Shown: piece after piece, positions 38,813 to 48,853 of the stretch | Numbering within the stretch: the stretch's first letter is position 1 | How the letters are laid out: each line of letters opens with the position of its first letter | DNA from: Escherichia phage Turkey5 | Length of the DNA: 64,000 bases | Sequence record: PQ471516.1 | Reading direction: 5' to 3' (one strand) | Program-made: the position numbers and the translations under genes | The notes under the pieces: model-generated | The model's input: only the letters and a program-made list of their open reading frames with translations | Database searches by the model: none | Told to the model about the DNA's origin: nothing

Positions 38813-41800
38813 TTAACTAAATTTTAATAAACGTTCTACATCCAATCCACTAATTGTCAAACTGTCTGTATAAACACTCAATTCAATTGGCAAATAGTTC
38901 TCACCATATTTCTTGAACTTATCAATGTTTCCTAAGTTCATGCCAGTAAATGTATATGTCTCATCTAGTTTGAAATCATGTTCCGCACTGTACATCGCAC
39001 CACGTAGTAAGTTATTTGCATTACGCACTTGGACTTTCTCGTAACCCAATGAAATAACATCATTCAGTGAAGCTGCTGCACCCGATAGAACATTATTGGT
39101 CACACTGTATGGGCTTACTGATGAAGGTTGTGAAACATAGGTCATATGTTCATTCTCAATCATCGTAATGCTTGTCACAGTACTGCCAACAGCGGTAATA
39201 TAAGCATTTGATACTAGTGGGTAGTTATACACCCAAACCCCGTCAGAATTACGTGTAGGTTCTAGTAAACCAACATCGTATTCAAACACGTTAATCTCAA
39301 CGCTATCAACCATTCTTGTTCTTACTAGTTCACTTAGAACACCAGAACCAGTAATAGGCAGATTATAGCCGTTATCGATTGTAACCCCGTCCACAACGAA
39401 AATTTCATTTGACACTAACCATAGGTCAATATCACTTGAAGTTATTCCGTCATTATATGAACCGTTATCTAATGTCGTGTCATAAAATACTTCGTATTTC
39501 ATTGCATCAATTGCATAGTTTCGGTTTTCTTCGTATAATTTAACTCCATTAACAACAAATTCAGGATCTGCGAATGTTCTAATACGAACTAGGTTCAGTG
39601 CTAGAGGCATTGCATGTTCACCAGCTTTGTTAGTAGTGATGTTATCAAACATCAGTACTGCACCAGTTGAATCCAGTAATTCAACAGTACCATTGGCTGT
39701 ATTATTGCGTACAGTGAATAGTTTAGGTGTAGTTCCTGTTTTGATTTTAGATACACTCAAGATGGTTTCCCATGTATCGTTTTGGTATCTTACAAAATCC
39801 TCACCATCAGTGGTGAAAATCATAACTTTATCCCCATTAGCTAATGAATTGTCTACTAACTTCATTTGACTTTGAGTTTGTACTGATTTCACTTGATAGA
39901 AGTATTTTTCATCATACTTATCTGTTGTTGCACTAATATCGTTAGATACTTTTGCGTATGAAGGAATACTAATAATTGCTTGTCCATAGTTGTAAGGGTT
40001 GATTAGAACCATACCTTCAACATGTAAGCGACTATTGTCACGTAGCTGAACTTGAGCAGCAGTATCAAAGCCATATCCATCAATCGTTACTCTGATTTGA
40101 CCGATATCACGTTCCGCTGGGTTCACATCACGAATATCAATGATATAAGGATCAACCTCATCGTCTTGTACTGACCATTTCATGGTAGCTGTTTGTGATT
40201 CTAGTGCTAGGTTATCGAAAGAGTTCATATCATTATAATATTTCGCACCTTCAATACCGTCTAGTATTTGTTTATAATCAGAATACATTGGATTGTTAAC
40301 ATCTTGCGGTAAATCATCCAAATTGATTTCAGCTAAACTAACAGCCTGACCAGTTGTGATGAAGATATCTTCGATGAAATCGTCAATACTTTGATTACGT
40401 GGAATACTAACAAACGTATCATTTACTTTAGCATATACATATTTTCTAGGAATCATAGTGAATGCATAGTTTTGTACAGAATTATTACTTAGTACTTCTT
40501 CGGCAATTTCATAATTATTGGAAGCATCCTTGTTAAACAAGTTACGCATACCAGTTAATACATGAACTGCGTCGGTGTAATATCTTCTTACTTCAATTAC
40601 AACTTCTTCACCATCTTCATCTTGAATTGTTTGTTCTTCCATGAACTTATACATGTAAACGCCGTATTCAACTTCTAGCTCAATTCTAACTTCCTCGTCA
40701 CTGAACGCAGGATTTGCAGTTTTAATCAAATCAACATATTTCTTATACAATTCACTGGATACTTCATAATAACCTAAGTTATAATCAGTACTGCTTGCGA
40801 AGCCAAACGGTAGACGAGTGCTTGGGTTGTCAGTGAAGGTCACTCCACTAAAACCACATCCAACTTCATCATGAATAACTTCATTACTAGCACCAGTGTA
40901 CAGCTTCAATCGGTTAGAAAGAGTGTTGTACTGAACATAATGTTTAACATCGTCAAACACTTCGTTATTTGTCGCTTCTGCATAAATGCGGTGAAGATTT
41001 TGGGTAAATTCTTCAGTTAGTGCTAAGTTATCAGAATTTTCTTTATACCAATCGTTAATTGCTTTAGCAGCACCCATTGTAATATTCATACTTGGATATA
41101 GAATTTGCATTTGGTATGCAACTTGTAAATCTAAAGTTTCTGAATTATTTTCAGGGAAGGTATAAATGAATCTTTGTAACTCAAAATCACTGACTACATC
41201 TTTTTCGTTACTTTGATACTTGTTGTTAACTGCATTTAGTACATCTAGGCTTGCCAAATCTTCATTTGGTTTACACTGAATGTTGTCATAATGCATAATC
41301 ACATCAATTTCTTGGAAACGTCTATTTGGTGTTACAAAATCGCTTGGCAATGAACCAATTTGTTCCCATCTCTGAGTAACATCACTAAACTGTGCGTATT
41401 CATAGTCCCAAATATCTTTTTCAGTTTTAACCCAAGAACCATCAACAAGAATATAGCCATTTGGATCGAGGTCGTTGCATAATCCTTTGATAACATCATC
41501 ATCTGATGTTTTCTGTTCAATCTGAGAACGAATCTTAGTTCTGTACGGTTTAACTTCTTCAAAGTACTCGACAATTTGATTAATCAAGTTATCGTTTGAA
41601 TAGTTCTGTACAAGAGATTGCTCTAGACCAATAATATAAATGTAAGATGTTTTGAATACCCAGTCCACAACACCCTGTTCAACGTGAACATACTTAACCA
41701 TATCAAATACTATTGTACTTTGATGTAAATCGAAAGAGTTTTTCAATAAAGCTAGTGCTTTACGAACGTTAATCTCTCTATTACTCAATGAACCACTTTC

Positions 41801-48853: not shown

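What the first reader, a model, noticed from the sequence alone, without database searches (positions are those of the whole stretch)
38813..48853. 3346-aa single-ORF giant protein in the baseplate module
One uninterrupted 10-kb ORF follows the gp25/W-like and gp6/J-like genes, the slot occupied by about 1000-aa gp7/gpI proteins in model myoviruses. The three-fold size excess suggests extra domains fused on (fibre-network, enzymatic or carbohydrate-binding). It has no RBS at the start and a dedicated upstream terminator.
Basis: partly seen in the sequence, partly recalled or inferred. Interest (0 to 1): 0.5.

Follow-up and report, generated by a model that had tools for sequence, protein, structure and literature searches.

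The report
Known giant baseplate-module protein, jumbo coliphage
The 10-kb gene is real and encodes the catalogued 380-kDa virion protein of Rak2-like jumbo phages; it sits where baseplate protein gp7 normally sits but resembles no known protein or solved fold, so its exact role is still unknown.

Summary
The ORF (38813-48853, minus strand) is real. The window is an Asteriusvirus-type jumbo coliphage, 99.5% identical to vB_EcoM_JNE01. The ORF is the orthologue of 121Q gp582, phAPEC6 gp245 and CBB_236. The last two were detected in virions by mass spectrometry.

The true start is probably 30 nt downstream (ATG 48823, 3336 aa). That ATG has a GGAG ribosome-binding site and a late-promoter-like ATAAATA 43 nt upstream, so "no RBS" is a start-choice artefact. 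The upstream hairpin is real and conserved.

The gene follows gp53-, gp5-, gp25- and gp6-like genes, and this order holds in about 72 of 74 related metagenomic loci. The family is large: at least 590 IMG/VR stretches and 88 cultured-phage records. It is always giant (3143-6312 aa), and this member is among the smallest.

Residues 1-2450 form a conserved core. The last ~880 residues occur only in the enterobacterial lineage.

I found no Pfam, PDB-sequence, profile-profile (T4 gp7, P2 gpI) or fold match, despite a confident AlphaFold model of residues 1-1200. This protein has no enzymatic or carbohydrate-binding domain. Distant relatives carry CBM5/12 inserts.

Best reading: a single-chain outer-wedge scaffold in the gp7 slot. 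This is inferred, not shown. The object itself is already known; interest is modest.

The parts
38813..48853 (-).
38813..48823 (-). Most likely real coding sequence: Met11 start, 3336 aa, 380 kDa, pI 4.55. No transmembrane segment and no internal repeats.
48831..48834 (-). GGAG ribosome-binding site, 7 nt before ATG 48823.
   Evidence: read directly from the sequence
48860..48867 (-). CATAAATA, a T4-late-promoter-like motif 43 nt before ATG 48823. The same ATAAATA motif sits 37-42 nt before seven other genes of the window.
   Evidence: Promoter function is inferred, not shown.
48876..48897 (-). Hairpin with UUCG loop followed by a T-run, between the gp6-like gene and the giant gene (intrinsic-terminator-like or RNA-stabilising). 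Conserved in 121Q.
41474..48823 (-). Residues 1-2450: the core conserved in all family members, including 24-30%-identical relatives from metagenomes.
48644..48823 (-). Residues 1-60: conserved N-terminal helical segment with invariant Leu25-Pro26 (family motif R..LLP..FQT...KF..AT.DQL). Low AlphaFold confidence as a monomer, so a candidate partner-binding element.
44168..44617 (-). Residues 1403-1552: the best-conserved stretch of the protein (0.61 against 0.51 overall) yet the lowest pLDDT (42-48). This could be a partner-dependent interface or an artefact of cutting the model at residue 1253.
48353..48379 (-). Insertion hot spot 1 (residues ~149-157). Relatives carry 60-210 extra residues here.
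45023..45067 (-). Insertion hot spot 2 (residues ~1253-1267). Distant relatives carry CBM_5_12 carbohydrate-binding modules here. The window protein has none.
43448..43498 (-). Insertion hot spot 3 (residues ~1776-1792). Relatives carry up to about 1300 extra residues here.
38816..41473 (-). Residues 2451-3336: lineage-specific C-terminal third. Only 9 hits among 1.84 billion representative proteins, seven of them orthologues or fragments, one unidentified 2002-aa protein and one spurious repeat match. It is also the most variable part among Asteriusviruses (52-79% against 77-96% identity).
38784..38809 (-). Strong hairpin flanked by A- and T-runs, between the converging giant gene and the ClpA/B-like gene (bidirectional-terminator-like).
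48905..52366 (-). gp6/J-like baseplate wedge gene (1153 aa), the constant upstream neighbour of the giant gene.
52467..52862 (-). gp25/W-like wedge gene (131 aa).
53403..56066 (-). gp5-like spike gene (OB fold, M23 peptidase, lysozyme).
58228..58542 (-). gp53-like wedge gene (104 aa; Pfam Phage_gp53, 23 bits against a cut-off of 21).

Best explanation
This is the conserved giant virion structural protein of the Rak2-like jumbo-phage clade (phrog_10938; orthologues 121Q gp582, phAPEC6 gp245, CBB_236, PA5oct gp128). Most likely it is the outer part of each baseplate wedge, one 380-kDa chain per wedge and six per virion.

In this reading it docks onto the inner wedge, which is made of two gp6-like chains, gp25 and gp53. 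It would take the place that gp7 holds in T4, and possibly that of the peripheral proteins gp8-gp11 as well. The 2450-residue conserved core would be the rigid frame. The insertion hot spots and the lineage-specific C-terminal ~880 residues would be the exposed, fast-evolving surfaces that carry the phage's tail fibres and tailspikes or touch the cell surface.

The hairpin and ATAAATA motif in front of the gene suggest partly separate late transcription from the gp6-like gene.

Shown: the ORF, its likely start, its synteny, its conservation pattern, the virion presence of orthologues, and the lack of any known domain. Inferred: baseplate location, copy number, contact with the gp6-like protein, and fibre docking.
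For: Gene order matches the T4 order gp53-gp5-...-gp6-gp7. In the window it is gp53-like, 712-aa protein, gp5-like, lysozyme, gp25-like, gp6-like, giant. The gp6-like gene ends within 400 nt of the giant gene in 68 of 74 related loci. Four of the six misses are alignment artefacts, which gives about 72 of 74. Genes abut or overlap in distant relatives, and tail-fibre genes follow.

Orthologues are in purified virions: phAPEC6 gp245, 381.9 kDa, 17 peptides, listed next to the gp244 baseplate wedge; CBB_236, 21 peptides, next to the CBB_237 baseplate wedge. Their sequence coverage (7.6-7.7%) is lower than that of the gp6-like protein (12-24%), which fits a lower copy number.

The protein is an acidic soluble protein with no transmembrane segment or repeats. 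The AlphaFold model of residues 1-1200 is a compact mixed alpha/beta multi-domain body (pLDDT 83.9, pTM 0.80), not a fibre or tape measure. Relatives insert CBM5/12, FG-GAP, TIG and He_PIG modules at fixed hot spots, as expected for a surface-exposed part near the host envelope. The C-terminal third is lineage-specific and the most variable part.

No other protein of the module matches gp7, TssG or gpI either, so the obligatory third wedge subunit is otherwise unaccounted for.

Against: Mass spectrometry shows virion association only, not baseplate location. Two neighbouring proteins of unknown function (243 aa and 712 aa) could supply the gp7-like core instead. Residues 1201-1252 and 2453-3336 were not modelled. 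Whole-model fold searches with 1200-residue multi-domain queries are insensitive to single domains.
Confidence: 0.55

Rival explanations
1. The giant is a purely peripheral add-on. It would be a fibre-docking or host-adhesion platform, analogous to T4 gp8-gp11 or the phiKZ/Goslar peripheral baseplate. A separate small protein of the module, such as the 243-aa or 712-aa protein, would be the true gp7/TssG-like wedge core.
For: No gp7-like feature was found in the giant. The 243-aa and 712-aa proteins are conserved in the same module and have no assigned function. Relatives carry CBM and Ig-like inserts, which point to an outward-facing role.
Against: In T4, P2 and type VI secretion clusters the gene after the gp6/J/TssF gene is the gp7/I/TssG gene, and the giant holds that position in about 72 of 74 loci. 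The 243-aa protein shows a weak gp48-like tube-initiator signal rather than anything gp7-like (E=0.04). The 712-aa protein sits where a gp27-like hub gene would be expected, just before the gp5-like gene (inference from position).
Confidence: 0.25
2. The giant is a virion protein located outside the baseplate. It could be an internal or ejected protein, a head or neck component, or the anchor of the tail 'hairs' seen on phAPEC6 and CBB.
For: Mass spectrometry only shows presence in particles. PHROGs files the family under 'head and packaging'. phAPEC6 and CBB have unexplained whiskers on the tail.
Against: The tight, clade-wide linkage to gp25/gp6 genes followed by fibre genes argues against it. 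The family is also present in relatives for which no whiskers are reported, such as RaK2 and PA5oct. The protein is predicted to be globular and multi-domain, with no repeats or coiled coil. The PHROG category is a generic label attached to 'virion structural protein'.
Confidence: 0.1
3. The giant is mainly an enzyme or receptor-binding protein, such as a depolymerase, a peptidoglycan hydrolase or an adhesin, rather than a scaffold.
For: It is very large and possibly exposed. One relative is annotated 'chitin-binding type-3 domain-containing protein'. CBM5/12 modules occur in 5 of 13 diverse members.
Against: No catalytic or binding domain is found in this protein by Pfam, NCBIfam, PDB sequence or fold search. 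The invariant residues are mostly Trp, Gly, Pro and Tyr, typical of fold determinants. The window encodes dedicated lysozymes, a depolymerase-like tailspike and two giant fibre proteins elsewhere.
Confidence: 0.07

Closest known systems
Orthologues in cultured Rak2-like jumbo phages: 121Q gp582, vB_EcoM_JNE01, PBECO4, phAPEC6 gp245, RaK2, CBB_236, PA5oct gp128 (phrog_10938)
   Same: Same gene: 99.5% DNA identity to JNE01, about 80% to 121Q, and 57-68% protein identity to CBB and RaK2. Same neighbours. Virion-associated by mass spectrometry in phAPEC6 and CBB. The CBB paper uses the 'largest ORF' of each Rak2-like phage genome, presumably this gene, as the anchor for orienting the genomes.
   Different: Nothing essential. 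The C-terminal ~840 residues diverge more than the rest: 52-79% identity to the 121Q type, and the last 1.8 kb gives no megablast match.
T4 gp7 (baseplate wedge initiator, 1032 aa), with the T4 peripheral proteins gp8-gp11
   Same: Gene position directly after gene 6 in a gp53-gp5-...-gp6 module. Large multi-domain structural protein. Expected one copy per wedge (inference).
P2 gpI / T6SS TssG (minimal third subunit of the wedge heterotrimer)
   Same: Gene order W-J-I is equivalent to gp25-gp6-giant. By eye, both begin with a basic residue followed by LLP and a helix: P2 gpI 'RLLPTGSSPLE', giant family 'R..LLP..FQT'.
   Different: 176 aa against 3336 aa. The motif resemblance is not statistically supported (hhalign E=0.8). 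No Tail_P2_I or TssG Pfam hit in 13 diverse members.
Peripheral baseplates of chimalliviruses (phiKZ, Goslar)
   Same: Jumbo myoviruses with enlarged, elaborate baseplates beyond the conserved inner wedge.
   Different: Those are built from many mid-sized proteins: seven wedge proteins, gp32/gp220 spokes and further peripheral proteins. Here most of the extra mass would be a single polypeptide. No significant sequence or fold match to the phiKZ baseplate chains in the PDB: the only Foldseek hits are E about 0.8-1.0.

Membership tests
phrog_10938 / Rak2-like giant virion structural protein | Full-length sequence match to the family profile | tested here: met
   5294.6 bits, E = 0; residues 11-3343 of the ORF match positions 1-3324 of the 3324-position profile. 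212 homologues, all 2791-5400 aa among the 120 listed.
phrog_10938 / Rak2-like giant virion structural protein | Location directly downstream of the gp25-like and gp6-like genes | tested here: met
   True in the window and in 121Q, and in about 72 of 74 related loci.
phrog_10938 / Rak2-like giant virion structural protein | Incorporated into virions | not testable with these tools
   Shown for orthologues only: phAPEC6 gp245 (PMC7247149) and CBB_236 (PMC5259590).
T4 gp7 family | Sequence match to the gp7 helical domain, domain V or domain VI | tested here: not met
   T4 gp7 hits PF21428, PF21427 and PF21456. The giant and 12 diverse relatives hit none of them even at E<=0.5. hhalign against a 17-sequence gp7 alignment gives E=0.48 and 0.25.
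T4 gp7 family | Fold similarity to gp7 in solved baseplates | tested here: inconclusive
T4 gp7 family | Gene immediately follows the gp6 gene | tested here: met
gp7 / gpI / TssG wedge-core role (function, not homology) | Forms a 1:2 heterotrimer (core bundle and trifurcation unit) with two gp6/J/TssF chains | not testable with these tools
   No multimer prediction was available. The candidate segments are residues 1-60 and 1403-1552, which are conserved but have low monomer pLDDT.
P2 gpI (Pfam Tail_P2_I) / TssG | Profile match | tested here: not met
   No Pfam hit. hhalign of the N-terminal family alignment against P2 gpI and against its family gives E=0.79-0.8.
Tail fibre / tailspike proteins | Fibre, beta-helix or repeat architecture, or a match to fibre families | tested here: not met
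   No internal repeats. No fibre Pfam or PHROG hit. The model of residues 1-1200 is a compact mixed alpha/beta body. The window's real fibre genes hit phrog_4549.
Carbohydrate-binding (CBM5/12) baseplate proteins | CBM_5_12 module present | tested here: not met
   Absent in the window protein. Present in 5 of 13 diverse relatives, inserted at query position ~1265.

The most novel reading that the evidence does not exclude
The 2450-residue conserved core could be a structurally new way of building a contractile-tail baseplate. A single giant chain would replace, without homology, both the otherwise universal gp7/TssG/gpI wedge subunit and the whole set of peripheral proteins. The fixed insertion sites would act as plug-in points for host-binding modules across a very large, mostly uncultured clade of huge phages.
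Probability: 0.25. Interest if true: 0.6.

Novelty: already known. Interest (0 to 1): 0.3.

Why it matters
This protein is a hallmark gene of a very large jumbo/huge-phage clade. It occurs in 88 cultured-phage records, including phages isolated on E. coli O157:H7, Klebsiella, Salmonella and Pseudomonas hosts. It also occurs in at least 590 IMG/VR stretches, on contigs up to 490 kb. It is probably the largest single building block of their host-recognition machine.

No structure or function is known for any member, and nothing in the PDB resembles it. One baseplate cryo-EM map of a 121Q-type phage would therefore annotate the whole family. It would also show whether the 'universal' gp6-gp6-gp7 wedge core really is universal.

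In practice, the variable C-terminus and the three insertion hot spots are the obvious places to look for host-range determinants or to engineer them. For genome annotation, the start codon should be placed at Met11.

Tried and rejected
1. Known-domain searches on the giant all gave nothing.
- Pfam, whole protein and four segments at E<=5.
- Pfam on 13 diverse members.
- NCBIfam.
- PDB sequences by phmmer and by a 20-sequence profile.

2. Homology to T4 gp7 was rejected at the sequence level, both single sequence and family against family.

3. Homology to the neighbouring gp6-like family, which would indicate gp6/gp7 paralogy: none.

4. The N-terminal 'LLP' motif resembles P2 gpI by eye, but it is not significant. 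I keep it only as a lead.

6. The C-terminal third was searched against 1.84 billion representative proteins. Seven of the nine hits are orthologues or fragments and one is an unidentified 2002-aa protein. The remaining hit, a eukaryotic VWD-repeat protein, is a chance match multiplied by identical repeats.

7. Internal repeats: none. Transmembrane segments: none.

8. A real split of the ORF was rejected. The only fragmented record (CMSTMSU) is flagged UNVERIFIED and its gp6-like and ClpA genes are fragmented too.

9. Presence in bacterial genomes: only 13 loci in the GTDB species set, all on MAG contigs and none in isolate genomes. These are probably mis-binned phage contigs.

10. Roles of the 243-aa and 712-aa neighbours: no PDB or Pfam hit. 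The only signal is a weak gp48-like match for the 243-aa protein.

11. The exact T4 late-promoter octamer TATAAATA is not enriched in the window: 2 matches against 6 expected. Only the 7-mer ATAAATA shows positional clustering.
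Full report
WHAT IS IN THE SEQUENCE

The ORF exists as described. It lies at 38813..48853 on the minus strand, with 3346 codons and no stop. From base composition the chance of this is about 1e-109. The other two frames of that strand hold 175 and 476 stops, and GC by codon position is 0.48/0.35/0.27.

The window comes from an Asteriusvirus-type jumbo coliphage. The ORF is 99.5% identical in DNA to Escherichia phage vB_EcoM_JNE01. Over its first 8.2 kb it is about 80% identical to 121Q, PBECO4 and many others. In the 121Q RefSeq record the orthologue is gp582, 'virion structural protein', 3323 aa. PHROGs holds it as phrog_10938, matched end to end.

START, RBS, TERMINATOR

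Thirty nucleotides downstream, ATG 48823 (Met11) has GGAG 7 nt upstream. Three further lines point to this start:
- The PHROG profile and the 121Q annotation begin there.
- That methionine is invariant in 38 diverse homologues.
- ATAAATA lies 37-42 nt before the start codon of seven other window genes. It lies 43 nt before ATG 48823 but only 13 nt before ATG 48853.

The protein is therefore most likely 3336 aa, 380 kDa, pI 4.55. Residue numbers below count from Met11.

The upstream hairpin (48897-48876, UUCG loop, T-run) is real. Its dG is -11.2 kcal/mol with z = -5.6. It is conserved in 121Q, where a G.U pair becomes G-C. Hairpin plus ATAAATA suggests attenuation after the gp6-like gene and re-initiation for the giant gene. 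That is inference. A second strong hairpin (38809-38784) separates the giant gene from the converging ClpA/B-like gene.

NEIGHBOURHOOD

Upstream on the same strand the genes are, in order:
- a 243-aa protein of unknown function;
- a gp53-like protein (Pfam Phage_gp53);
- a 712-aa protein of unknown function;
- a gp5-like spike (OB fold, M23 peptidase, lysozyme);
- a small lysozyme;
- a gp25-like protein (Pfam GPW_gp25);
- a 1153-aa gp6-like protein (phrog_219; its family profile hits P1 BplA at E=0.0014).

P2 gpI is only 176 aa, however, so 'about 1000 aa' describes T4 gp7 only.

ALREADY KNOWN IN THE LITERATURE

- phAPEC6 virion proteome: gp245, 'hypothetical protein', 381.88 kDa, 17 unique peptides, 7.6% coverage. 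It is listed after gp244, 'baseplate wedge', 131 kDa, 24.2% coverage (PMC7247149).
- CBB virion proteome: CBB_236, 'structural protein', 21 peptides, 7.72% coverage, next to CBB_237, 'baseplate wedge'. The same paper uses the 'largest ORF' of each Rak2-like phage, presumably this gene, to orient the genomes (PMC5259590).
- PA5oct: gp128 is named as one of the two largest proteins, and it precedes gp129, annotated as baseplate wedge (PMC7318152).

None of these papers assigns a function. None of my four literature searches found a baseplate structure for this clade, and no PDB chain matches the family by sequence.

THE FAMILY

A search of 5.8 billion proteins gave 212 hits. The 120 listed are all 2791-5400 aa. 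Cultured phages give 88 records. These include Escherichia, Klebsiella, Salmonella, Erwinia, Yersinia, Pectobacterium and Cronobacter phages, Pseudomonas PA5oct-like phages, Vibrio 2.275.O, Salicola SCTP-2, Agrobacterium Atu_ph07, Ralstonia RsoM2USA and Xanthomonas phages. In the GTDB species genomes there are only 13 loci, all on MAG contigs.

In the fetched loci, 48 complete single ORFs measure 3143-6312 codons, with a median near 4375. The window protein is therefore among the smallest members.

The gp6-like gene ends within 400 nt of the giant gene in 68 of 74 loci that have enough flank. Four of the six misses are alignment artefacts; the real exceptions are L006 and L009. The only record that splits the ORF (CMSTMSU) is flagged UNVERIFIED and fragments its neighbours too.

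ANATOMY

Residues 1-2450 are conserved down to 24-30% identity. Many of the invariant residues are Trp, Gly, Pro or Tyr.

Relatives differ in size mainly through insertions at three fixed hot spots and at the C-terminus:
- about residue 150: up to 210 extra residues;
- about residue 1260: up to 77 extra residues, which are CBM_5_12 modules in the relatives tested;
- about residue 1790: up to about 1300 extra residues.

Larger relatives also carry FG-GAP, TIG and He_PIG modules.

The last ~880 residues are confined to the enterobacterial lineage. Among 1.84 billion representatives there are nine hits. Seven are orthologues or fragments, one is an unidentified 2002-aa protein and one is a spurious repeat match. 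This part is also the least conserved among Asteriusviruses. The protein has no internal repeats and no transmembrane segment.

STRUCTURE

AlphaFold2 with a 21-sequence alignment gave a confident model of residues 1-1200 (pLDDT 83.9, pTM 0.80). It has beta-rich domains at about 86-600, a helical bundle at about 620-735, and mixed alpha/beta domains up to about 1175. The model of residues 1253-2452 is moderate (pLDDT 71.1, pTM 0.49).

Neither model has a significant match in the PDB:
- Foldseek, residues 1-1200: best E = 0.16.
- Foldseek, residues 1253-2452: best E = 0.22.

The PDB copy searched includes solved phage baseplate chains: KP1 gp6, P1 BplA and phiKZ baseplate chains appear among the weak hits.

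Two segments are better conserved than average but poorly predicted as a monomer. These are residues 1-60 (helical, invariant Leu25-Pro26) and residues 1403-1552 (the most conserved stretch, pLDDT 42-48). They may fold only against partners. For the second segment, cutting the model at residue 1253 is an alternative explanation.

IS IT gp7?

By position, yes. By every similarity test I could run, no.
- The Pfam gp7 domains are absent in 13 diverse members.
- hhalign against a gp7 family alignment gives E = 0.25-0.48.
- hhalign against P2 gpI and its family gives E about 0.8.
- hhalign against the gp6-like family gives E = 0.68.
- No fold match was found (see above).

I therefore do not file it as a member of the gp7, gpI or TssG families. 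Functional equivalence remains the best inference. All contractile systems studied so far have a third wedge subunit encoded after the gp6-type gene (established knowledge; Taylor et al. 2016, cited from memory). Nothing else in the module matches that role.

MOST LIKELY MECHANISM (confidence about 0.55)

One chain per wedge binds the gp6-like dimer, gp25 and gp53, and forms the outer baseplate frame. The hot-spot inserts and the C-terminal third form exposed, lineage-specific surfaces for docking fibres or tailspikes, or for contact with the cell surface.

The main rival (0.25) is that the giant is only peripheral and that a small neighbouring protein is the true gp7 equivalent. Location outside the baseplate (0.1) and an enzymatic or receptor-binding main role (0.07) are less likely.

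VERDICT

This copy has no enzymatic or carbohydrate-binding domain.

The object is already catalogued and proteomically confirmed in close relatives, so as a finding it is not new. What stays open is the architecture of a very widespread 2450-residue core that has no detectable relative among solved structures. Interest 0.3.

Noticed in passing
window 36493-38778 (+): A two-AAA-domain ClpA/ClpB-like ATPase gene (AAA_2, AAA, ClpB_D2-small, AAA_lid_9) converges on the 3' end of the giant gene and shares the hairpin at 38784-38809. It is conserved at this spot in 121Q (gp581) but is not next to the giant gene in distant relatives (L003, L004). A chaperone next to a 380-kDa structural protein is suggestive, but I did not test the idea.
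   Followed up: partly
window, 37-42 nt upstream of the starts at 1961, 14041, 30807, 53364, 59273, 63923 (and 50 nt before 2498): The 7-mer ATAAATA clusters about 40 nt before start codons of several genes, mostly structural ones. The exact T4 late octamer TATAAATA is not enriched (2 found, 6 expected). This is probably the clade's late-promoter core, which fits the gp55-like sigma factor annotated in 121Q (gp591).
   Followed up: partly
L001 7721-8485 (121Q gp584) against window 52367-52466: 121Q carries an HNH endonuclease gene ('associated with group I intron') between the gp25-like and gp6-like genes. The window has only a 100-nt spacer with a terminator-like hairpin there (52462-52439). 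This is a mobile-element presence/absence polymorphism inside the baseplate module.
   Followed up: no
window 15000-21362 (-) and 21501-26387 (-): Two further giant genes (2120 and 1628 aa) are paralogous tail-fibre proteins with multiple phrog_4549 repeats. Next to them lie a colanic-acid-depolymerase-like tailspike (27411-29558) and a 423-aa tail protein.
   Followed up: partly
window 53403-56066 (-) and 52876-53364 (-): The gp5-like spike combines an OB fold, a VgrG-like DUF2345 stretch, an M23 peptidase and a C-terminal lysozyme. It is followed by a second, stand-alone lysozyme gene.
   Followed up: no
window 58542-59273 (-), 243 aa: This conserved module protein has no known function. Its family profile aligns weakly (hhalign E=0.04) with the C-terminal strands of T4 gp48, the tube initiator. 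It has no PDB or Pfam hit.
   Followed up: partly
L009 3500-20422: In this 282-kb IMG/VR contig the gp6-like gene is 6.5 kb away from the first detectable giant-family match. A separate fragment matching query residues 2351-2443 lies before the main copy. There may be two tandem giant paralogues.
   Followed up: no
L013 (10001-18562) and L024 (2864-16764): In L013 the homology continues in the same frame past an in-frame stop. In L024 the frame changes across a 5.6-kb gap. Possible causes are stop-codon recoding, an intervening element or assembly errors.
   Followed up: no
L006 (IMGVR_UViG_3300027985_000364): This is a 37%-identical relative whose upstream module (gp5-like, 712-aa-like, gp53-like, 243-aa-like) is inverted. 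No gp25- or gp6-like gene lies within 10 kb upstream. It is one of only two real exceptions to the synteny.
   Followed up: no
window 29567-30838 (-) and 34891-36507 (-): The longest-ORF TTG starts probably overextend these genes. The PHROG profiles begin at residues 49 and 43, and the 121Q orthologues are shorter (372 and 497 aa). This is the same start-choice artefact as for the giant gene.
   Followed up: partly
H44, Escherichia phage EJP2 (OQ411014.1): The orthologue of the giant protein is annotated there as 'D-alanyl-D-alanine carboxypeptidase'. Nothing in my domain searches supports that name, so it is probably a mis-annotation.
   Followed up: no
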